A DNA stretch of 64,000 nucleotides. It comes from Pecten maximus (lineage: Eukaryota). This document shows, one piece after another, positions 9,301 to 60,826 of this stretch. The translations under genes were made by a program, and so were the position numbers. The stretch is from the NCBI RefSeq assembly GCF_902652985.1, contig NC_047024.1, positions 26,474,001 through 26,538,000 on the forward strand, written 5' to 3'. The notes beneath the pieces were generated by a model. It saw only the letters and a program-made list of their open reading frames with translations. It was not told the origin of the DNA and made no database searches. Within the stretch, counting starts at the first letter, position 1, and each line of letters begins with the position of its first letter.

Positions 9301-12129
9301 AGGGTTATATAGAGGCAGTGCCATACAATGGTAAATGTATAACTATATGCTATTTTAAATCCCCGTTAAAACCTTTAAACATTTATAACCGTTTGGATTA
9401 TAATGAATCCCTTTATCTTTAAATGAATGTTGAATTGATGTTTATCACATAGTCGGTCTACTCTGTATCCAGTGAATTCGCCAAGGCGATAAGTTCGCAA
9501 TGTCGCTCATATCAGTTACCCCGGGGCGATTTTCATTGGCATTGCTATCTGAAACATGACGTCATGAATCTGGTCAACAAAATGGCTGCCCCCGTTTGAT
9601 TTTTTCGCGCCTTTTTGGCTTTATAATATGTCAAATTGCAGAGTTAGGTTTCTGTACACTTGAGATATTTTATATCAACACTGAGATCATCTTTCTTATG
9701 TCTGTACCTAAAATAATCGTGTATTGTTATGTATTTCCCACATTCAAATATCTCTAGTTGTAACGGATTTTAAGCTGGCTATGTCTTCGTAATATACATA
9801 TTTTGACAAAATTGCGAAAAAAAAATAAATTGTTGAGTGATATATACCCTAATTATGATATCATGTGAGAATGTAAATGAGCAGCGGGAAATATCTAATA
9901 TTATATAGGCATGCGCAAACTGTTTTTTATTTTAAGATTGGCGGCCCAACAACAAAAGCAACGCACCAAAATACCCAAGTGGAAAAATGTGAAAACCCAT
10001 CATGAAATAGCAGTGAAATTTCTCTGTATTCGATAAACAAACACATGTCATTTTTTTATGTTTATCATCCGTGGATGTAACTCTGCGCCCTCAGGATAAA
10101 TTCACGTTCTATTTTTAGATGTTTATAACATATTTAAGTTATGAATTGCAGCTGTAACTGAGCAGGTTTGAAGAAAATAACATACAGATACATGTAAGTT
10201 CAGAAGGGATAATCTTCATATCTAAAAATAAAAACATTGAGAGGCGTAGTAACGAACGCTTTGATGGTAAAGCGCTAGTCACATTCCGTAACTTTTATAT
10301 ATTATAAATACAATTGTCATTTTTCAATAAGATTTTTAACAAAAGGGAAGCATACACAGTTCCAACTAAATTCCAGCCGTATTACAAAGCTATACGAAGT
10401 AAGTTTACTATGTAATGAACCAACGGAGAGATTCATTTTGAGTGAGTGTTTAAATTCGGGGGCTCTCTTGAACTTCGATAAAGTGTGTATTCCGTGTTGA
10501 ACCCCCTGTTGTTATGGCCAATACGGTTATTTTGTAAAATAAGTAGAACAAGGTCGCGATCTTCTTTGAAAAGCAAACAGGTTCTATACAGAGGAGGTCG
10601 TCACAGTTGATGAATAAGATAGCTATATTAACAATGGTTCGACGGTGGATGGTGACTGGCACGTTATTGTGTCCATCTTGTAAGTCTGATCTCACCCCGG
10701 GTGTCTGACAGCTCCGTGGATATATCTACATCTAATCTCCCGACTGCTCAGAGGCGTACTAATCATGTATTCAACCACTATTCTGCCCGCAGTATCAAAC
10801 TTAGAGATGTCTAGATTCAGCGTTGACACAGCTAGATATGACATTCCGTAATATTTATAGGATGTATATATACGTGTAGTATTTTGTTGTGTTAAGTTTC
10901 GAGCATCAACATTTTGTATATCTTTATTTACAATAGACATCATTGCCCTTGTGCTCATAATCAACATAGTATGTACATACATGGTGGTACTTGAATGAAT
11001 ACATACATGTACTAGTATTGATATTCAGTAGGAACATTATTCAGTAAAGTGTAACAGGCATATTAATATTTTCGTACGATTTCAATCAACACTTACTAAA
11101 TTGATAAATAAAATATTTCTTCACAGTATTTCTGACAGACTATACAAGCATGAAAAAAACAACAACAACAAAAAACAAAAAAACAACAACAACAACCAAC
11201 AACAACAACAATATAACCATATAGTAAGCAAAGGATACTGTACAAATAATTCCACTTGTCTCTTAATTAAATAGTATTTCATTTCTTAATTTATTTGCTT
11301 TGTATATATCACAGTGGTATGTATACGTCTCTGATTTTTGTAACAAACACACGTGTGGCCCGCTGATTAATAGATCTTGAATCTTGTACATAGTAAAAAC
11401 GCCTGTTTGGATATTAGATATTGTCAAGTCCCTGTGGCCATCGTAACAGCAGTGGGAAACCTTAGGGGTTGTCGATGTATAAAAACCCCGATTTTGATAC
11501 GGATTCAGAATGTTTTTGGACGCTTAATTTATAGTGTTGTGGTTGTTAAGTGATGTCAAATGTTACTCAAAATCCCGAAACCGAGCCCCTGTGATGACAG
11601 TGGCTAGCAATGACAATACATGTATACGGGCTAATGATAAAAATAACAAGGACAGTGTTGAGTGTTGGTTGACCCTAGGCACACATGCGCTAATGCTATC
11701 ATTCGTGTGTATCCATGTAGTAATAATGAACGACAGGCAGCCAGACGAAAGTTTTGATAGAACTGTATGTATACCTTTCCCGTTGTATTTTGTTATTTTT
11801 GTGAAAACGTTTTGACACCTTAAGCAGTAATTCAAATCACATCTTGGCCAATTTTAATAGATTCCATTATTCTCAACCAGATTAGAACATTTTACCATTA
11901 TTTGGTCAGCTCTAAACGTAAACAAACTCAACAAGATAGTAATTTACGTAAGTTATTACCCTTGTTAAACAATCACCCTTACTCAGCCTTATGTCAACAG
12001 TCACCTAAAGTTCAACATCAACATGTACACATTGCTTTAATACGAATATCTCCAGACTTTCTGTTCCCAGAGTTATCGTTCCTTGTGCTTTCACACCTTA
12101 ATTTTCGTTTGAAACAACGTTAATTGATT

Positions 12130-12950
12130 TAGAGAAGCGTATGTGAACCTACATTTACAGCAAAATTGCTACACAAACATATCTAAATTTCGTTTAGAAA
12201 AACTAAATAAGACAAGCACACATGTACCATCTGTTTGAATGGGGCATGTAACGTTTATCGTTTAAGAGATCATTAATATAATCAGAATACAACCAAGGGG
12301 AGATAATACTGCCCTGGCGGATCCACTGGCTTATCCAAAACATATTGCAGACGTTTTGATATTATCAACGCTAAACATATCTTCGTATAAAACATTATTA
12401 CCTGTACATATTTCCTATCAAAACCTAAACGTGCAAAAGTTTGAAACCCAACCCGCCAAGCCACACACAATCAAAGGTTTTAGAAATATTTAAAATACAA
12501 GAGAACAATTCAGCTCCGTACTCAATATTTTCTTGCCCAATATATGAAGTCATTCTTCTTTCTGTCATACATATTGTAAAGGATTGACATGGGAAAGATT
12601 TGACAACTCTCGTCAAAATATATTTTTTTATGTATAAGAGGTACATGTATAAGCATTATCGATCTATAACTATTTGGATCACTTTTGGCTTACCTTGACT
12701 TTTATATAAAGTGAAAATAAAATCCTGCTTTATCAATTCAATATTAATTGTTACTAAATAATTATACACTTTTTTTTTTACGAAATAAAATTTTAAAATA
12801 TTGTAAGATATTAGAATTGTACATATACCCGTGTCAGTGAATTGAATGAAAGTATTGTTAAACCCCTCAAATAGGTCACCCGTCATCGTCAAATAAGACC
12901 TCATTAAGGCGAAACGAACATTTGTTGACCCTTTGATAATTATTTTTCCC
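12130..12950 (-). pseudogene. Highly decayed LINE reverse-transcriptase relic
   Basis: SCILNISKTFDCVWLGGLGFKL matches the LINE RT motif (FLDxxKAFDxVxxxGLxxKL); many stops and frameshifts. Confidence 0.55.
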
Positions 12951-13004
12951 ACGATATCGTATCCACGATATTGATCTTAAATACCAAATTATTTACATGA
13001 CAAT

Positions 13005-13490
13005 TGGCCACTTTCCAATTCAGCGCCACCTGGCGGATCATAATCCAAGATGGCGGCGTATGGTGTGTCCGTGTCACAGCACATGTTTTTAGTGTTTTAT
13101 CAGCGCTACGCGTCAAATTAGACTTTTTCCAGAAAATCTTCGTGCTTAAATGCGTATATAGGTAAGTAAGTCTTTATTTTGGAATGATTTTATAAGGAAA
13201 TAAGGCGATATAAGACCGATATACACTTGTTCAAATACCCCAGGTGAGAAACCCTGCAGAATGCTATGTAACTCATTTACACAGGTGTAGCATTAAAAAT
13301 CGGTCATTGTATGATTCACGATTCATTTATTAGTTCTTGATTTGTATAGATCGAATAGAATCAGTCACTGCTTATGAAATGACGGCATCATAACGATGAT
13401 AGCGAAATAAATAACGATATATTTATAAATACTATTTGCACCAGGTAACATTACAGGTAATTTTGAAAGGTGTTTTGAATGCCGCCATTT
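13005..13490 (+). repeat. Left TIR (486 bp)
   Basis: Reverse complement of 18937-19422 with only 3 mismatches (13423, 13424, 13461); gapped similarity continues to GTCACGTGA at ~13529. Confidence 0.97.
13021..13167 (+). promoter_or_regulatory. Putative TIR-embedded promoter and non-coding first exon of the transposase gene
   Basis: CTCF-like CAGCGCCACCTGGCGG 13021-13036; YY1 motif CAAGATGGCGGC 13046-13057; CpG-rich stretch; donor AG|GTAAGT (GT at 13162); acceptor TTTTTCAG| at 13683, 7 nt before the ATG. Confidence 0.6.
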
Positions 13491-13690
13491 AGCCTATACT
13501 ATTTTTAGAGCAGGTGAAAAGTCACGTGATCTATCTAGGATAGTGATCTTCCATTGATTCATTGTATTTTCTATTTCATGTCACCTGACATTCGTATTTA
13601 AATAAATATTATAAAAAGTACTGGTATAGGCCTAGTGGTTTAAAAACATATTATGAAAACAAACTTTGATTTATATTTTTCAGATACAAA

Positions 13691-15184
13691 ATGCCTCATC
13701 ACTGCTGTGTGCCACATTGTACAAATAATTCCAAGACAAAAGATGGTTACTCTTTTCATACATTCCCTAAAGACCCTTCAGTGGCAAAAAAGTGGGTGAT
13801 TGCTATACGCAGAGATCAAGGTGCAGATTTTGATATCAACAAAGAGACAAGAGTATGCTCCGTTCACTTTAACGCAGACTCTTACCATCCTACCACTGCT
13901 ATTCATGTTCGAAAACGTTTGCGAGGGACTGCTGTACCATCAGTATTTCAATGGACTGTACAGAAACCCGTCAGAAGGAAACTCAGCCTTCTCATGAAAA
14001 GTCCAAATTGTGGAAATGTAGAATCCAACAATACAAGTTTCCCAGAAAAACATGTTTTGGAAAGCTGTAATAATGATTGTGATGAGCCTTTGCTTGTAGA
14101 CCAGCCTTTTAGTAGTGAGGATAGTTTAACAAATGTGGATTGGGCTGAATCTCCAGACAAGAGTAAATTAAAAGAAACCAACAGTGTTCTACTTCACATT
14201 AGGAACAAAGAGAAGTTTTCAATTCTACGGTTTTGTAATTCCGATTCTGATATCAGATATTACACAGGATTTTCATCATACCTAGCCTTACACTGTTTCT
14301 TCACATTCTTACAACCGGCTTGTAGCTTTTTGTACTATGTAGGGACAGACAACACATCTGAAGGGACACCTTACATATTTCTCAACAAACGTGGAAAGTC
14401 CAGATCCTTGTCGCCTATGGAAGAGTTATTTGTAACTCTTGTTCGTCTTCGGAAAGGTTTACCAGAAAAACATTTAGGTGACCTGTATAACCTTTCTGAG
14501 GGACATGTGTCAAAAATACTCAACACTTGGATTGCTTTTCTTGACAACAGACTGTCTTCGCTACCAATTTGGCCACAAAGAGATCATGTGAATAACACCA
14601 TGCCAGCAATTTTCAAGACATATTTTTCCTCTACTCGAACCATAATTGACTGCACAGAAATATTCATAGAACACCCATCTGCCTCGGAGTGTCAGCGGGA
14701 GACATTTTCCTCGTACAAACATCACAACACTGCAAAGGGTCTCATTGCCATCGCACCAAGTGGCCAAATCACATTTATTTCTCCGCTCTACTCTGGGCGA
14801 TGTTCAGACAAGAAAATAATTCGCCATTGTGGATTGTTGGACCTGATAGAGGAAGGAGATGGTGTCATGGTTGATCGCGGCTTTGACATTACAACAGATC
14901 TTGAAAACAGGGGTGCTCATCTTATAATGCCTGCCTTTTTAAGTGGAAAAGACCAATTCACTCCTGATCAGTTATCTCAATCCAGAGAAATAGCAACAGT
15001 GCGCGTCCATGTTGAGAGGGCTGTGAGGAAGATCAAAGAATTTGAAATTCTGAGACACACAGTTCCCATCACATTGTGTCCTATGCTTGAAAAGATATGG
15101 AATATTTGTGGACATTTGGCTAATTTCTCAGGGAGTGGAACATTGTTTAGACAACCCAAAGATGTCTCCACTTGTAAAGAATAA
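13691..15184 (+). CDS. Transposase: THAP zinc finger + HTH + DDE (Harbinger/ISL2EU DDE_Tnp_4 type), 497 aa
   Basis: THAP CCVPHC...W...VCSVHF...AVPSVF; HTH LSPMEELFVTLVRLR...VSKILNTW; catalytic IIDCTE, VMVDRGF, RVHVERAVRKIK; FSSYKHHNTAKGLI motif; uninterrupted ORF. Confidence 0.96.
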   Translation: MPHHCCVPHCTNNSKTKDGYSFHTFPKDPSVAKKWVIAIRRDQGADFDINKETRVCSVHFNADSYHPTTAIHVRKRLRGTAVPSVFQWTVQKPVRRKLSLLMKSPNCGNVESNNTSFPEKHVLESCNNDCDEPLLVDQPFSSEDSLTNVDWAESPDKSKLKETNSVLLHIRNKEKFSILRFCNSDSDIRYYTGFSSYLALHCFFTFLQPACSFLYYVGTDNTSEGTPYIFLNKRGKSRSLSPMEELFVTLVRLRKGLPEKHLGDLYNLSEGHVSKILNTWIAFLDNRLSSLPIWPQRDHVNNTMPAIFKTYFSSTRTIIDCTEIFIEHPSASECQRETFSSYKHHNTAKGLIAIAPSGQITFISPLYSGRCSDKKIIRHCGLLDLIEEGDGVMVDRGFDITTDLENRGAHLIMPAFLSGKDQFTPDQLSQSREIATVRVHVERAVRKIKEFEILRHTVPITLCPMLEKIWNICGHLANFSGSGTLFRQPKDVSTCKE

Positions 15185-16407
15185 AGACACATTGATAATG
15201 CTCTCATGTTTAATGAAATGTCAGATTCTTTTCATATATGAACACTTTATAATATGATACATATAAAACATGTTTCCATGGTGATCAAAGTTTCAAAAAT
15301 ATTATGTTGAATTTTGTACAATTTTTGTGACAATAAAATGCATTTTCAAATACTGTCATAGTAGTAATACCATGAAAAAATTCCAAGCAAAAAAGTTTGT
15401 AAATAATACATTTCTACAAATGAAATATCAGAAATTGTCCAACCGATATTCATATCATCATATATATGCATCAAACATTTATCACTAGTCATACATTGTA
15501 ATATTCCAGTTGTTGTCTAGATCTATAAAAATGTATTGAAGAAATTTTATATTATCACAAGTGATGATATAGGACAACTTGGATTTCACTGCATCCTTTC
15601 TTAAGTTAATCTTTTTTCACTGTTGAAAATATAAAAATAATCTGTCTAAATTATAAACTATATTGAACCATGTATATGAAATGTCAGCATAGCGCAGGAA
15701 ATGAATATTGTTCACATATTTTTAAACTTACTCTTTACAAGAAGTAATGACTATAAATAAATAATTTAACTAAGAAACTGTGAAATTGAATGTGGACTAA
15801 AAATACAAAATTCAATAGTAACAACTTTCATTTTAATTTTTACATGTTACAAGTCATAATTAAAAAATATCACAATTCAATGTCTTAATGACTATGAAAC
15901 TAATAACAGTATTTCAACAAAAATTCTGTACAGTACAATTGTGACAATGGACATAATTTGTATGACTTGTGCTTGTATTCAATTTTATGCTACCATACAT
16001 GGTTTAAGATTGTACTAGTGTACACTGAAACCATCAATATATATGTACATTGTGCTTTTAACACGAGACATGCATATGTCCTACACTAACTATCATATTG
16101 AACATTACATGTATATGTGTCAGTCACGAGTGCAAAAAAGGAATATAATGTATGAAATATCCTATGTAAAAATTAGAATAAATTTTGTTTTCCCCAAGTC
16201 ACTTTTGTACATGTTGTATGTAAAACCCATCTGCACAGACATGTGATAATTATGATAATCAACACATTGAAAGAATCTAGTCAACATGCGAAAATATATG
16301 GCTACACACCATTTTTCAATATACATAAAGTAAAGTTTGTATTTAAAATGTCAGTCTGGATGGGTATTGCATGTGCCTCTTGTACTAAACAATACAAGTC
16401 GAGACCT

Positions 16408-18126
16408 TCACTGATCTTTTGTGCGGAGACAATCAACAAAATGTGGGAGCAAATGGCTGAAATAGATACTGTTGAGTTTAGGCAACATATTAGAACAGAA
16501 AAACTCTGAATCACGATGTATCTCTACTATGGCAATGTCTTCCGGAGGAACGAATACTACAAAGTCACACTTCTCTATTCCACACAAATTCAGTTGTCCT
16601 TGCACTTGATAAAAGTAGTCGTGGGATTTTTTGAGTTGGATTTCACCAGTTGTCGGGTTTTTTTCCAAATAAAAGTTTTTCTCCTTCATTTGTGATAATA
16701 TACTTGTCTTCTTCTTGAATACAGAGTATGGACATTTGATTTCCACCAGTCTAATCTCATTGTTGACTTTTACTAGTCTATCAGGTGTCACTCCAAGATG
16801 GGGTAGTTTGGGGTTTACAACAAGACCAACTGGTGAACTAGCACATGGTTTTTCCTTTTGATACAAAGCCAAGGCTTGAGCTTCATAATTGATACCGTGA
16901 CGGACACTTTTTGACGTGAAAAACTTCTTCTTTTGTTGAAACGTATTCACAGGGTCTGTTGTATTTTTCAGGCGACAAAAAACACCAAAGTTAGATGCAG
17001 TAATACGGTATTGTCTCTCATTAAACCAGAATGAAGTCTTGCTCTGTAGCCTTGTATTTTTCTCTATGAACTTGGCTCTTTGGGTGTCTACACTCACATT
17101 AACTAGGTAATGTTGCTGGATGTCTGATTTGAGTGCCTGTGGCAATTCTATTTCACTGAAGCTAGTATTGTCAACCATCTCAAACAAATCTGCGTCTAGG
17201 TTTACATCACAGCGTTGCCTACATGCCACAGGTTTGAAATTGTTTTCTCGAATGGTGTCCAACACTGGAAGGTTTAAACCTGATGCATCAAACAGGTTAA
17301 CAAGTTTGGTTAGATCATTACCTGTAACAGATCTGGCAAACTCGGGCACAGGGTTATGAGTAGCTGCAGCTGCACACAAATCCTTCTTCACGGTCTTAAA
17401 CGGATCATGTTTGACAAAGTTGATGTCTCTGAACAGAAGAGGCTCATCAGACGTTGGTTTTCTAACATGCCACAATTGCAACTTGTCTGTGCATGTTTTC
17501 ACATCGGGCATTGTTTTTACATCCTGGCGGTGAAAGTCAATAAGACAGAACAATGTGGCTACAAGGTGCTTACATTGCCCATCTATTCCTGCTGGACATG
17601 AGCATGTCCCCCACTTTAATTTTGTTCCTCCATGTTTCAGGCACATGTATATGTTATAAGTTTTCTGCTTCATTGCAGCTTGGCATTGACCTCTGAAATA
17701 TATCAAGTTTCCAGTTGTGGTACTGCTCAAACCTGTTATTTTTCCCTCTCGGAATAGTGTCCAGCCTTCAACCCTGTGGCGTTTTGTTTTCACAAAGTCA
17801 AGAACACTTTCATCGATGTCCTCAATAGGGAAATCTTCACCCCATCCTGTCGTTGGTGCCACGCGTCCTTGAAAACTAAGGAGTCCTTTTTTTGAAATTA
17901 AAGGGTTTATTTTCATTAGTTCACAGCAGCCAGGACAAAACCATTTTGCAATGTTCTTAGCTTCTTCTTCATCAAGATCAACACAAGATGGATGGAACCA
18001 ATCATCACAGAGATCACATCTAACCATTATTTTTTCTGGATCTTCTGGGGTCTTGCAAACACAGTGCAGTGTACGGTCAGTAGATGCAGACTGGTTCATC
18101 TCCTCATGATTTCTTTTTCGAGACAT
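16408..18126 (-). CDS. PHD finger - SWIM zinc finger - YqaJ/lambda-exonuclease (PD-(D/E)xK) protein, 572 aa
   Basis: PHD C4HC3 CVC...MVRCDLCDDWFHPSCV...WFCPGC; SWIM CSCPAGIDGQCKH; YqaJ WFNERQYRITASNF, HGINYE, GVTPDRLV...VEIKCPY, YFYQVQGQL. True start is likely MSRKR at 18126, because the upstream MCLFIFVYLY stretch is a polypyrimidine tract and acceptor (exon starts 18145). Confidence 0.94.
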   Translation of the reverse strand: MSRKRNHEEMNQSASTDRTLHCVCKTPEDPEKIMVRCDLCDDWFHPSCVDLDEEEAKNIAKWFCPGCCELMKINPLISKKGLLSFQGRVAPTTGWGEDFPIEDIDESVLDFVKTKRHRVEGWTLFREGKITGLSSTTTGNLIYFRGQCQAAMKQKTYNIYMCLKHGGTKLKWGTCSCPAGIDGQCKHLVATLFCLIDFHRQDVKTMPDVKTCTDKLQLWHVRKPTSDEPLLFRDINFVKHDPFKTVKKDLCAAAATHNPVPEFARSVTGNDLTKLVNLFDASGLNLPVLDTIRENNFKPVACRQRCDVNLDADLFEMVDNTSFSEIELPQALKSDIQQHYLVNVSVDTQRAKFIEKNTRLQSKTSFWFNERQYRITASNFGVFCRLKNTTDPVNTFQQKKKFFTSKSVRHGINYEAQALALYQKEKPCASSPVGLVVNPKLPHLGVTPDRLVKVNNEIRLVEIKCPYSVFKKKTSILSQMKEKNFYLEKNPTTGEIQLKKSHDYFYQVQGQLNLCGIEKCDFVVFVPPEDIAIVEIHRDSEFFCSNMLPKLNSIYFSHLLPHFVDCLRTKDQ

Positions 18127-18304
18127 GGTTACTTGTTGTTGGTACCTATATAAGTAAACAAAAATAAATAGACACATGAAGATTAATAAGGTTAAAGCTT
18201 ATCAATAAATAATAGTACAGCTTATGATATCGTAACATATTAAGCTTTTCCATGGTAATATTAGCTGTTTATATTATAATAAACCATTAAGACTATATGC
18301 ATGT

Positions 18305-18683
18305 ATTTATTGCATTTTACTGACAGAAATCCTATATTATCACTAGTGATGATATAAGGTTGTTGACTGTACTGCATGGAAGAAATCTGATAAAATCACT
18401 AGTCATAATCAAATGTAAGATTTCTTGAATTCAATGCATTAACATAAAAGATACATTCAATGTGCTTTCAGATGTCTGCAAATGCATTTTAAGTTTAACT
18501 GCAAATGCAATAAACAGAAAATTTAATAATTTCTCGTTTGATATAAAATATATATCACTTGTATTTCAGATTTTATAATTAGATAACACTTGTGCTACAC
18601 ACTCGTGAAAATATAATTTATAAATAAATCTGTCATACTCATGAAATATATCTTATATTAAATAGGTAACTCTGAATATCCTC
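18305..18683 (-). repeat. Decayed palindromic repeat nested in the putative intron of the YqaJ gene
   Basis: Ends (ATTTATTGCATTTTAC... and ...GAATATCCTC) and internal TCACTAGTGA and CACTCGTGAAAATAT resemble the reverse complement of the 22152-22580 element. Confidence 0.5.
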
Positions 18684-18936
18684 ATTGATTCCTATGAGCC
18701 ATATATATATCAAAATATTCAAAAGCAGATTTTACCCTGTTCTTAAATAGGCCTAATAAACAACATAACTGAAGATATATATATTTGTCATTATAACATA
18801 AAACAGGGCCAAAAACAAAACATCAACATGACTGCTAAAAATCTTTTTTTATTTTTGGTTAAAAAAATATTTTCATCATCATGTTTTGTCATTATCAACC
18901 TCTTGATGTCACGTGACTCTACCTGCTCGAAATATA

Positions 18937-19422
18937 AAATGGCGGCATTCAAAACACCTTTCAAACTTACCTGTAATGTTACCTGGTGCAAATAGTATTT
19001 ATGGATATATCGTTATTTATTTCGCTATCATCGTTATGATGCCGTCATTTCATAAGCAGTGACTGATTCTATTCGATCTATACAAATCAAGAACTAATAA
19101 ATGAATCGTGAATCATACAATGACCGATTTTTAATGCTACACCTGTGTAAATGAGTTACATAGCATTCTGCAGGGTTTCTCACCTGGGGTATTTGAACAA
19201 GTGTATATCGGTCTTATATCGCCTTATTTCCTTATAAAATCATTCCAAAATAAAGACTTACTTACCTATATACGCATTTAAGCACGAAGATTTTCTGGAA
19301 AAAGTCTAATTTGACGCGTAGCGCTGATAAAACACTAAAAACATGTGCTGTGACACGGACACACCATACGCCGCCATCTTGGATTATGATCCGCCAGGTG
19401 GCGCTGAATTGGAAAGTGGCCA
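18937..19422 (-). repeat. Right TIR (486 bp)
   Basis: Reverse complement of 13005-13490. Confidence 0.97.
19260..19406 (-). promoter_or_regulatory. Putative TIR-embedded promoter and non-coding first exon of the YqaJ gene
   Basis: Mirror copy of 13021-13167: CTCF-like 19391-19406, YY1 19370-19381, donor GT at 19265-19264; acceptor TTTGTTTACTTATATAG| before 18145, 19 nt upstream of ATG 18126. Confidence 0.6.
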
Positions 19423-20224
19423 ATTAAGCAAACCTGTGTAACGACGTTCTTAAGAAGTTTACACAGGTTTTGCGGAATTCCATATCCTTTAAATCGCCGG
19501 AGTCACGCATGGTCAGGCTACAAAAATAAATATTCGTTAACATACAATACATGATGTTGTTTTAACTAATTACGTGTGTAAAACAAGTCCATTCTTGTCG
19601 ATTCATGTCCATACCTGGCTCAGGACTTTATTTCTGTTTACCTATGAGTTTGAAATAGGTTACGCACCGAGTTTTGTGGATCATGACACGGAGATCTTGA
19701 ATATGTAAGCCAAATTTATAAGACTGAGTCGAGCAAGAGGGTTACAAAGAAGATTGAACAAGGGATTATTGTTGTATTGGAATTAGTGATTAAGGATTGC
19801 TGGAGTATTCGCGAAAGAAGATTATTGGAGTTCTTACGAAAGGCTCAATTTTCGAAATTTTAAAGAACAGGCTATTTAAGTAGAGCAACAATGTTACTGA
19901 GTATTACATACTGGAAAAGACCCGAGATGTTCCTGGGGAGGGGGAGCCAAACCCATCTGTTCACTAACATAGTCCGATGGGAGACGATAATATGCACACA
20001 ACCGACCTAGGGGTATTCTCTAAATAATTGAATCATTCTTTTCTGGAACATTGTTGTCAGATCAAGGGGCGGGGCAGTTATCCACAAAAGCTGCCCCCAA
20101 AATTCATAGCTTACTTTACGTCACACCTACAGGGGCCTGGACATTACCTTACGGCCTGTTAAGATGGCGGTCTGTTCAAATCGCAGTACGTCCGTTGTCC
20201 GTCCTAATCTATATCCTCTAATCT

Positions 20225-20402
20225 GGTCGGGTGGCACAATAGTAACGCTCTTGTCTTTCACCTAGGCAGTCGGGGTTCGATTCCCCGATCGGAAGTGTAA
20301 AGGTACATGTTTGGGGCCATAAGCTGTCTGACCACATGTGTTTTCTTAGGGTACACCGGTTTCCTCCCAGAACACACCTCGCCTGGTTCCACCCGGGCCA
20401 AC
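20225..20402 (+). mobile_element. tRNA-derived SINE (family 1)
   Basis: A box TGGCACAATAGT, B box GGTTCGATTCC, central GGGTACACCGGTTTCCTCCCA domain. Confidence 0.75.
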
Positions 20403-21215: not shown

Positions 21216-21664
21216 TCCTACACTCCAGTCACCACTCCTGACCGGATATGTCCTCTGTACTCTGTATCCTCCCCACATCCCTGTTATATCCCTACACTCC
21301 AGTCACCACTCCTGACCGGATATGTCCTCTGTACTCTGTATCCTCCCCACATCCCTGTTATATCTCTACACTCCAGTCACCACTCCTGACCGGATATGTC
21401 CTCTGTACTCTGTATCCTCCCCACATCCCTGTTATATCTCTACACTCCAGTCACCACTCCTGACCGGATATGTCCTCTGTACTCTGTATCCTCCCCACAT
21501 CCCTGTTATATCCCTACACTCCAGTCACCACTCCTGACCGGGTATGTCCCTCTGTACCCTCCCCACATCCCTATTATATCCCTACACTCCAGTCAGCACT
21601 CCTGACCGGATATGTCCCTCTGTACTCTGTACCCTCCCCACATCCCTATTATATCTCTACACTG
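21216..21664. repeat. Minisatellite, 74-bp unit, ~6 copies
   Basis: Unit CTACACTCCAGTCACCACTCCTGACCGGATATGTCC...; staggered ORFs start 74 nt apart (21248, 21322, 21396, 21470). Confidence 0.95.
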
Positions 21665-59103: not shown

Positions 59104-59314
59104 GTATGTGTACAACAGAGGAGTCCGATCTCGTCACTATTTTCCCATTTGTCCCATATAGCTTTATGTTACCTCACCAACAAATATTTGATTGAGAGTT
59201 ATACTGTTAAGCATATTAGCCTAATTAAGACTGAATTTTGACATTAGTTTTAGACATTGAATGATCAATATTTTGATATAATACTATGGTCGTTTTAACC
59301 GTTGTTTCCATTGA

Positions 59315-60790
59315 AGTCTGACATGTGTTTGTTATAAAAGTCTGACATGTGTTTGTTTTAAAGTCTGACCTGTGTTTGTTTTAAAGTATGACGTGTTTGT
59401 TATAAAGTCTGACATGTGTTTGTTTTAAAGTCTGACATGTGTTTGTTATAAAGTCTGACATGTGTTTGTTATAAAAGTCTGACATGTCTTTGTGTTATAG
59501 TCTGACATGTGTTTGTTTTAAAGCCTGACATGTGTTTGTTATGAAGTCTGACATGTATTTGTTATAAAGTCTGACGTGTGTTTGTTATAAAGTCTGGCAT
59601 GTCTTTGTGTAATAGTCTGACACGTGTTTGTTATAAAGTCTGACATGTGTTTTTGTTTAAGTCTGACATGTGTTTGTGTTAAAGTCTGACATGTGTTTTG
59701 TGTTATAGTCTGAAATGTGTTTGTTATAAAGTCTGACATGTGTTTGTTTTATAGTCTGACATGTGTTTGTTATAAAAGTCTGACATGTGTTTGTTATAAA
59801 GTCTGACATGTGTTTGTATTATAGTCTGACATGTGTTTGTGTTATAGTCAGACATGTGTTTTTGTTTAAGTCTGACATGTGTTTGTGTTATAGTCTGACA
59901 TGTGTTTGTTATAAAAGTCTGACATGTGTTTGTAATAAAGTCTGACATGTGTTTGTTATAAAGTCTGACATGTGTTTTTGTTTAAGCCTGACATGTGTTT
60001 GTTATAAAAGTCTGACATGTGTTTGTTATAAAGTCTGACATGTGTTTGTTATAAAGTCTGACATGTGTTTGTTATAAAAGTCTGACATGTCTTTGTGTTA
60101 TAGTCTGACATGTGTTTGTATTATAGTCTGACATGTGTTTGTGTTATAGTCTGACATGTGCTTGTATTATAGTCTGACATGTGTTTGTATTATAGTCTGT
60201 CATGTGTTTGTATTATAGTCAGACATGTGTTTTTGTTTAAGTCTAACATATGTTTGTGTTATAGTTTGACATGTGTTTGTTATAAAGTCTGACATGTGTT
60301 TGTTATAAAGTCTGACATGTGTTTTTGTTTAAGCCTGACATGTGTTTGTTATAAAAGTCTGGCATATGTTTGTTATAAAAGTCTGACATATGTTTGTTAT
60401 AAAGTCTGACATGTGTTTGTATTATAGTCTGACATGTGTTTGTGTTATAGTCAGACATGTGTTTTTGTTTAAGTCTGATATGTGTTTGTGTTATAGTCTG
60501 ACATGTGTTTGTTATAAAAGTCTGACATGTGTTTGTTATAAAGTCTGACATGTGTTTGTTATAAAAGTCTGACATGTGTTTGTTATAAAGTCTGACATGT
60601 GTTTGTGTTACAGTCTGACATGTGTTTGTGTTACAGTCTGACATGTGTTTTTATTATAGTCTGGTATGTATTAGTGCAAAAGTCTAAAGTGTTTGTATTA
60701 GAGTCGGACACTTGTTTGTGTTATAGCCTGGCAGGTTTTTGCTATAAAGTGTCTGACAATTGTTTGTGTTAAAGTCTGACATGTTTTTGT
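59315..60790. repeat. Intronic minisatellite, 23-25-bp unit (AAGTCTGACATGTGTTTGTTATA), ~1.5 kb
   Basis: Roughly 55-60 contiguous tandem units. Confidence 0.97.
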
Positions 60791-60826
60791 TCTAAAATCT
60801 GAAAGTAACTTATGTTGTAAACACAG

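What the first reader, a model, noticed from the sequence alone, without database searches (positions are those of the whole stretch)
16408..18126. Transposon-encoded chromatin-reader/exonuclease fusion (PHD-SWIM-YqaJ)
Seen: basic N-terminus (SRKR), C4HC3 PHD finger (~17926-18066), SWIM finger, TCTDKLQLWH motif and an intact PD...EIK lambda-exonuclease domain. The PHD keeps the Met and Trp of the H3K4me3 cage (IMVRC, DDWFH), but the two tyrosines typical of BPTF/PHF8-type fingers are His and Glu. Known: YqaJ/lambda exonucleases resect dsDNA 5'-3' in viral recombination, and PHD fingers read histone H3 tails. Inference: a histone-guided resection factor for target choice or for donor-site repair that restores the excised copy, with possibly altered methyl-state preference.
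Basis: partly seen in the sequence, partly recalled or inferred. Interest (0 to 1): 0.75.

Follow-up and report, generated by a model that had tools for sequence, protein, structure and literature searches.

The report
Transposon nuclease with histone-reader finger
This is the second gene of an intact, recently copied scallop jumping gene of a known type (ISL2EU): a predicted DNA-end-chewing enzyme joined to a PHD finger that likely binds methyl-marked histones and would hold the enzyme on promoter-type chromatin, a reader not found described for this transposon group.

Summary
16408-18126 (-) encodes a 572-aa PHD-SWIM-YqaJ protein with an intact lambda-exonuclease active site. It is ORF2 of a 6.4-kb ISL2EU DNA transposon (13005-19422) with a THAP-HTH-DDE transposase, 486-bp inverted ends and AT duplication in AATT. 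The genome holds 10 copies, 6 with both genes intact; the protein matches Pecten maximus. Both genes are spliced from the same non-coding exon inside the CpG-rich inverted ends. SWIM-YqaJ is the known ISL2EU partner; the PHD is the addition. It is as conserved as the nuclease in other molluscs and sits on its own exon in a sister family. Five other scallop families carry a different, C-terminal PHD on a separate tree branch; this scan noted that C-terminal type before in a skate. The cage Glu matches the engineered BPTF Y17E change (H3K4me2-leaning); the His is peculiar to this family. Histone binding, nuclease activity and function are untested. Insertion sites show only a weak trend towards CpG-rich DNA (p 0.08-0.35). 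Best reading: a likely H3K4me2/3 tether that holds the end-processing nuclease at the element's own promoter-bearing ends. New variant of a known kind.

The parts
13003..13004 (.). Left target-site duplication AT (inside the AATT target; a 4-bp AATT duplication reads the same)
   Evidence: 20 of 20 ends read AATT then GGCC; sibling families begin AAT|AG or AAT|GG
13005..13490 (+). Left terminal inverted repeat, CpG-rich (o/e 1.22), YY1-like motif at 13047; holds the first exon and donor
   Evidence: the motif name is recalled
13005..13161 (+). Non-coding first exon of the transposase mRNA (5' start not fixed; donor at 13161|13162)
   Evidence: joint 13159-13682 GT..AG in runs X2, X9, X17
13162..13683 (+). 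5' UTR intron of the transposase gene (522 nt)
13691..15184 (+). Transposase, 497 aa: THAP 5-86, HTH_Tnp_4 239-289, DDE_Tnp_4 319-478
16408..18126 (-). ORF2, 572 aa, PHD-SWIM-YqaJ, convergent with the transposase
17926..18066 (-). C4HC3 PHD finger (residues 21-67); cage positions H21, E28, M34, W43; acidic D38, D42
17503..17823 (-). SWIM domain (residues 102-208; CxC-x7-CxH at 175-187)
16420..17091 (-). Lambda-exonuclease/YqaJ domain (residues 346-569; W367, R371, E415, D449, E462, K464)
18146..19265 (-). 5' UTR intron of ORF2 (1120 nt)
   Evidence: joint 18142-19263 CT..AC in runs X3, X17; pieces of X4 record 13 fit
19266..19422 (-). Non-coding first exon of ORF2, the mirror copy of the left exon
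18937..19422 (-). Right terminal inverted repeat (3 differences from the left over 489 nt)
19423..19424 (.). Right target-site duplication AT

Best explanation
This gene is the accessory protein of an intact ISL2EU cut-and-paste transposon: a SWIM plus lambda-type nuclease, predicted to trim or resect the DNA ends made at excision, fused to a PHD finger that likely binds methylated H3K4 and would tether it at the element's own promoter-bearing ends. Steps: (1) shown: both genes are spliced from the same exon in the two CpG-rich inverted ends, so each end carries a first exon; (2) inferred: active ends carry H3K4me2/3 nucleosomes; (3) inferred from sequence: the PHD binds them, weakly and leaning to me2 because of its Glu/Met/Trp cage; (4) inferred: this raises the nuclease's local level where the transposase cuts, favouring expressed copies, much as the RAG2 PHD acts at the DNA that RAG1 cuts; (5) inferred from fold and invariant site: the nuclease chews 5' strands at the break. 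Identity as ISL2EU ORF2 with a real, selected PHD: about 0.95. The confidence below is for the whole mechanism.
For: Element anatomy, 10 copies, 6 with both ORFs intact; 6 of the 7 copies aligned end to end differ by 4-9 substitutions in 6.4 kb, the seventh by 39. Nuclease fold: Z 17.6 to LHK-Exo (rmsd 3.1, 182 aligned) and Z 17.2 to lambda exonuclease (rmsd 3.1, 200 aligned); catalytic triad invariant in 97 of 97. PHD identity to the pearl-oyster relative is 36/50, against 159/223 for the nuclease and 57/100 for the linker. Closest solved PHDs are SHL, PHF2, BPTF and PHF8, E 3e-15 to 1e-12. M34 is kept in 6 of 6 and W43 in 5 of 6 protein relatives. BPTF Y17E prefers Kme2 (PMC4589357 passage); a Trp+Met cage in PHF20 reads H3K4me2 (PMC9898751 passage). 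A different PHD sits on five other scallop families, on a separate branch. TIR CpG o/e is 1.22 against 0.42-0.44 in the coding parts; splice joints. RAGL transposons pair a convergent accessory gene bearing a PHD, one of which prefers H3K4me2 (PMC10462144 passages).
Against: No binding or nuclease assay. This family has His where relatives have Tyr, leaving one aromatic cage residue, and one basal relative (P0187) has lost both Tyr and Trp, so the cage can decay. TAF3 has an acid at the E28-like position and still binds H3K4me3 (PMC8246079 passage), so the me2 lean is uncertain. Most homologs lack a PHD (6 of 97; 11 of 18 scallop families examined had none detected). Families without a PHD also have CpG-rich ends, o/e 0.92-1.51. 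The PHD was poorly modelled (pLDDT 35-60). No chromatin data were available. The weak insertion trend points to targets, not to own ends.
Confidence: 0.4

Rival explanations
1. Target choice: the PHD tethers the integration complex to H3K4-methylated host chromatin and biases insertion to AATT sites near promoters or away from methylated gene bodies.
For: Of 8 independent sites, one (C2) lies in the first coding exon of a gene 175 nt after its ATG, with a contig spliced at the next donor; the window copy lies about 730 nt from a spliced exon in unique DNA. Insertions of PHD-bearing families: flank CpG o/e 0.83 (n=20) against 0.68 (n=33) for families without; o/e below 0.5 in 2 of 20 against 10 of 33.
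Against: p = 0.08 and 0.11 for those contrasts; p = 0.29 for this family alone; against background p = 0.35, promoter-motif score p = 0.076, CpG contrast p = 0.30. Background tiles average 0.79, so the gap may come from one no-PHD family favouring CpG-poor DNA. CpG is only a proxy, few families were compared, and surviving insertions are filtered by selection.
Confidence: 0.25
2. The PHD of this family no longer reads histones, or binds a non-histone partner; it is kept as a folded zinc module while the SWIM-nuclease does the work.
For: His replaces the Tyr found in 5 of 6 relatives; P0187 has lost Tyr and Trp; most ISL2EU partners lack a PHD.
Against: Met, Trp and the acidic D38/D42 are kept, and the PHD is as conserved as the nuclease; PHDs with cage residues also occur at the C-terminus on another branch.
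Confidence: 0.18
3. Donor-site restoration: the nuclease resects the emptied donor site so that homologous repair from the sister chromatid copies the element back, raising copy number.
For: 5'-3' resection is what lambda-family exonucleases do (established knowledge; fold). One older copy has a 3-kb internal deletion of the sort that aborted gap repair leaves.
Against: All 10 copies with intact ends are full length and no small derivatives were found; copy number is low; no annealing-protein partner is encoded; the deletion joint has no perfect microhomology.
Confidence: 0.1
4. Second-strand cutter: ORF2 is a TnsA-like subunit that cuts or trims the non-transferred strand, with the PHD switching it on allosterically.
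For: PD-(D/E)xK fold as in Tn7 TnsA (recalled); the genes are co-inherited at similar divergence, 68%/69% in pearl oyster, 58%/58% in chiton, 59%/53% in zebra mussel; one predicted protein joins DDE and YqaJ in one chain (P0299).
Against: Related Harbinger elements carry a Myb-like partner and Spy elements a single ORF, with no nuclease (PMC4482050, PMC4122938 passages); P0299 may be an assembly artefact.
Confidence: 0.07

Closest known systems
ISL2EU group of the PHIS superfamily (PMC4482050, PMC4122938, PMC9179366; passages, and the YqaJ rows of Table S2)
   Same: THAP-HTH-DDE_Tnp_4 transposase plus YqaJ second ORF, A|AT|T target, animal host; ORF2 function stated to be unknown
   Different: N-terminal PHD on ORF2 (no PHD or SWIM in the main texts searched or in the supplements that could be searched); 486-bp TIRs against 6-259 bp reported; ends read TGG under an AT duplication; both genes share an exon inside the TIRs
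RAGL transposons and RAG2/RAG2L (PMC10462144, passages)
   Same: Two convergent genes; the accessory protein bears a PHD; sea-urchin RAG2L PHD prefers H3K4me2
   Different: Transib-type transposase and kelch accessory protein; no nuclease in the accessory gene; unrelated origin. It works like this at most; not a member.
Lambda exonuclease, LHK-Exo, herpesvirus alkaline nucleases, mimivirus R354
   Same: Fold and catalytic residues
   Different: Fused to SWIM and PHD; no annealing protein encoded; trimer and activity untested
PHF2/PHF8/BPTF/SHL-type PHD fingers; engineered BPTF Y17E
   Same: Closest sequences; Met, Trp and acidic residues kept; Glu at the Y17E position
   Different: First cage Tyr is His in this family; binding untested
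KolobokE (PMC9587614, passages)
   Same: DNA transposon with a lambda-like exonuclease
   Different: There the nuclease follows a Kolobok transposase domain and the duplication is TTAA; here two genes, DDE_Tnp_4, AATT target

Membership tests
ISL2EU | Transposase with THAP, HTH and DDE_Tnp_4 | tested here: met
ISL2EU | Second ORF with YqaJ exonuclease | tested here: met
ISL2EU | AT duplication in an A|AT|T target | tested here: met
   20 of 20 ends flanked by AAT; no empty site was seen
ISL2EU | TIRs usually begin GG (a tendency in PMC4482050, not a rule) | tested here: inconclusive
   TGG if the duplication is AT, GG if it is AATT; the two readings give the same empty site
ISL2EU | DDE domain falls in the ISL2EU clade with Repbase references | not testable with these tools
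   no Repbase sequences held
Lambda exonuclease/YqaJ | Fold and PD-(D/E)xK site with the N-terminal W, R and E | tested here: met
Lambda exonuclease/YqaJ | 5'-3' dsDNA exonuclease activity, ring trimer | not testable with these tools
   needs assay
H3K4me-reading PHD | C4HC3 ligands with cage Trp and Met | tested here: met
   2 of 10 copies have C22Y
PHF2/BPTF four-residue cage | Two further tyrosines | tested here: not met
   His21 and Glu28
H3K4me-reading PHD | Binds methylated H3K4 | not testable with these tools
   needs peptide assay
KolobokE | Kolobok-type transposase joined to the nuclease, TTAA duplication | tested here: not met
RAGL | RAG1-like core and kelch RAG2L | tested here: not met
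   Pfam shows THAP/DDE_Tnp_4 and PHD/YqaJ

The most novel reading that the evidence does not exclude
ISL2EU transposons have twice, independently, captured host PHD exons (a PHF2/BPTF-type at the N-terminus, an ING-type at the C-terminus) to make their accessory nuclease a histone-guided subunit, a convergent parallel to RAG2; the N-terminal clade carries a natural form of the engineered Y17E H3K4me2 reader, and reading H3K4 methylation governs where the element is cut out and where it lands.
Probability: 0.3. Interest if true: 0.8.

Novelty: new variant of a known kind. Interest (0 to 1): 0.52.

Why it matters
The role of the ISL2EU second gene is stated as unknown in the defining paper. This family is compact, recently copied, has no introns in either coding sequence and has six intact copies, so it can be tested directly. 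Sister families with N-terminal, C-terminal or no PHD in one genome give a natural comparison. If the PHD steers excision or insertion, it is a second, independent case of RAG2-like chromatin guidance in a DNA transposon, and a natural H3K4me2-leaning reader.

Tried and rejected
1) Host gene or domesticated copy: rejected; TIRs, target duplication and 10 dispersed copies. 2) Chance or mis-assembled fusion: rejected; one frame in 6 copies, conserved in pearl oyster, chiton and zebra mussel. 3) 589-aa start at 18177: rejected, it is intronic. 4) Cage geometry from a model: failed, PHD pLDDT 35-60. 5) Complex prediction of ORF2 with the transposase gave no result, so binding between them is untested here. 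6) Promoter targeting by CpG and motif proxies: inconclusive; the only p below 0.05 (0.016) needs 11 derivatives whose mobilising family is uncertain. 7) Small non-autonomous copies for more insertion sites: none. 8) Left flank 9832-13000 has next to no contig cover in 4 runs; contigs cannot show absence. 9) Literature: searches ISL2EU+YqaJ (3 papers), YqaJ+PHD+transposon (10), ISL2EU+exonuclease (7), ISL2EU+PHD (3), PHD finger+transposon+SWIM+exonuclease (1) showed no description of a PHD on ISL2EU ORF2; I saw listings for all and passages for PMC4482050, PMC9179366, PMC4122938, PMC9587614, PMC5718144. Repbase Reports, subscription journals and file 1 of the PMC4122938 supplement could not be seen and may describe it. 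The original Y17E paper was not held. A six-term search on donor-site resection found nothing.

Full report
The observation. Window 18126-16408 (-) translates to 572 aa without stops. Pfam gives PHD at 22-67 (E 6e-10), YqaJ at 367-516 (E 1.4e-13) and a sub-threshold SWIM at 174-195. In an alignment of 97 homologs (chosen from 186 proteins held then as those with both a SWIM and a nuclease motif; the near-identical P0002 and the fragment P0027 left out) C175, C177, C185, H187, D449, E462 and K464 are invariant. The AlphaFold model matches LHK-Exo (Z 17.6) and lambda exonuclease (Z 17.2), and the SWIM region matches ZSWIM8 alone (Z 10.1). The PHD was poorly modelled. The protein is 100% matched by Pecten maximus LOC117345238.

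The element. Facing ORF2 is a 497-aa THAP-HTH-DDE_Tnp_4 transposase at 13691-15184. Both lie between inverted repeats that are 99% complementary over 489 nt. The genome holds exactly 20 such ends, that is 10 copies, and each reads AATT then GGCC. Six copies have both ORFs intact. Of 7 copies aligned end to end, 6 differ from the window by 4-9 substitutions and one by 39. Two pairs share flanks, leaving 8 independent sites. This fits ISL2EU as defined in PMC4482050 (passages: two ORFs, YqaJ, A|AT|T target, ORF2 function unknown). With an AT duplication the element spans 13005-19422 and starts TGG; its TIRs exceed the 6-259 bp reported there.

Expression anatomy. Assembled contigs of 8 public runs were laid; 3 are on record as RNA, 3 are guessed RNA, 2 are unlabelled. 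A GT-AG joint links a TIR exon (donor 13161) to the transposase acceptor (13683) in X2, X9 and X17. The mirror joint links 19266 to the ORF2 acceptor at 18146 in X3 and X17, and X4 pieces fit it. So both genes start with the same non-coding exon inside the inverted ends. The TIR is CpG-rich (o/e 1.22) while the coding parts are depleted (0.42-0.44). That each end is a promoter is inferred; contigs show neither strand, start nor level. Most contigs carry alleles of other copies (17979 T, an extra piece at 16205), so they do not show that this copy is the source.

The PHD. Closest solved relatives are SHL, PHF2, BPTF and PHF8. Against the PHF2 cage Y7/Y14/M20/W29 (PMC9898751 passages) this finger has H21/E28/M34/W43. 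The PDB chain 2ri7_A reads KTPED where wild-type BPTF reads KTPYD, exactly as here, and BPTF Y17E prefers Kme2 (PMC4589357 passage). But TAF3 has an acid at the like position and binds H3K4me3 at about 1 uM (PMC8246079 passage), so preference cannot be read off. Relatives have Tyr at 21 in 5 of 6 cases where the position is filled (P0003, P0005, P0008, P0051, scallop sister family; Cys in P0187) and E, N, D or K at 28. The PHD is as conserved as the nuclease (36/50 against 159/223 to pearl oyster; linker 57/100), which implies selection. In an older scallop sister family the PHD lies on its own exon, split from the rest by a phase-1 GT-AG intron at the Gly80 codon, which suggests exon capture.

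How common. Six of the 97 homologs hit Pfam PHD; this undercounts, because separate exons are easily missed. In the scallop, 24 of 150 listed YqaJ matches have a listed PHD close by on the same strand (my count by eye of two capped lists). Of 18 families looked at, not picked at random, 2 have the N-terminal PHD, 5 a C-terminal one and 11 none detected. On a 184-row tree of the nuclease domain the 7 N-terminal and 9 C-terminal rows sit on separate, well-supported sides (SH-aLRT 99 and 96). A sponge protein of the C-terminal type is labelled ING1-like by its source. Two gains are the simplest reading; one gain with relocation was not formally excluded.

Target test. One of 8 sites (C2) is in a first coding exon 175 nt after an ATG with promoter-like motifs, and a contig end is spliced at the donor 21 nt further on. 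The window copy is about 730 nt from an exon in unique DNA that splices to 19517 and reads into the right end (one contig of a guessed-RNA run). Three sites lie in or beside repeats by eye. Flank CpG does not differ from background (0.84 against 0.78, p 0.35). PHD-bearing families against families without: 0.83 against 0.68, p 0.08; below 0.5 in 2 of 20 against 10 of 33, p 0.11. This is a weak trend in the direction of targeting and no more.

Mechanism. Shown: architecture, intact active site, selection on the PHD, shared TIR exon, recent copying. Inferred: H3K4me binding, H3K4me on the ends, end processing. I favour a tether at the element's own promoter-bearing ends (0.4), because a nuclease acts where ends are made, those ends carry first exons, and RAG2's PHD works at the cut substrate (PMC10462144 passages). 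Against it, no-PHD families also have CpG-rich ends. Target choice (0.25), a PHD that no longer reads histones (0.18), donor restoration (0.10) and second-strand cutting (0.07) remain open. Binding between the two proteins is untested here.

Novelty. No PHD or SWIM appears in the ISL2EU papers' main texts or searchable supplements, and five searches found no description; Repbase Reports and closed journals were not visible. Earlier notes of this scan report many ISL2EU SWIM-YqaJ elements, and one with a C-terminal ING-type PHD in a skate that also favoured the element's own ends; these are unchecked AI notes and no support. What is added here is the separate N-terminal PHF2/BPTF-type finger, its exon origin, the Y17E-like cage, the twin TIR exon and a live family. 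Verdict: new variant of a known kind, interest 0.52.

Noticed in passing
window 13312-13462 and 18964-19019: Contigs of two runs of one study (guessed RNA) show dense T>C in the left TIR and mirror A>G in the right TIR (X3: 24 T>C, 13 A>G). Of 13 sites checked only 3 vary among genomic copies. Likely A-to-I editing of read-through RNA that pairs across the inverted ends.
   Followed up: partly
window 19397-19519 and about 20150-20269 (-): One contig joins an exon in unique flank DNA to 19517 over a GT-AG intron and reads into the right TIR, so a flanking promoter may feed this copy's ORF2.
   Followed up: partly
L099/L100 (G000:C2 near 18427800): A copy interrupts the first coding exon of a gene, 21 nt before its splice donor; a chimeric contig runs from the TIR into the spliced next exon.
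   Followed up: partly
L063:5600-6330 and L064:7230-7930: Decayed sister family with the PHD on a separate exon; the live family has no intron there.
   Followed up: yes
L068-L075, L078: Five further ISL2EU-type scallop families end in a PHD; three look ING-like with cage residues, two (L072, L074) lack the cage Met.
   Followed up: partly
L058/L059 (C6) and L055/L061 (C17): Pairs of copies share flanks, inverted on C6 and direct on C17: segmental duplications or uncollapsed haplotypes; the second of each pair is frameshifted.
   Followed up: partly
L052/L053 (C7) and L061: Insertions of about 8 kb and 3 kb of other DNA inside the ORF2 5' intron.
   Followed up: no
L062:6971-8263: Older partial copy with a 3-kb internal deletion and no perfect microhomology at the joint.
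   Followed up: partly
P0299; P0168, P0170; P0015: A DDE-YqaJ single-chain protein; YqaJ proteins with Ulp1 protease and PHD; SAP domains on 7 of 97 homologs. Accessory domains vary widely.
   Followed up: no
window 16203-16205 and 17979: The window copy lacks a short 3' piece found in all 8 laid runs and has Asp50 where the 9 other copies have Asn.
   Followed up: partly
window 20225-20300; 21217-21663; 59310-60802: tRNA-like, SINE-type head by eye; a 74-bp tandem array (6 copies); a 23-bp satellite (64 copies).
   Followed up: no
L167-L192: A set of about 4.1-kb elements whose ends are about 92% like those of a C-terminal-PHD family; possibly its non-autonomous derivatives.
   Followed up: partly
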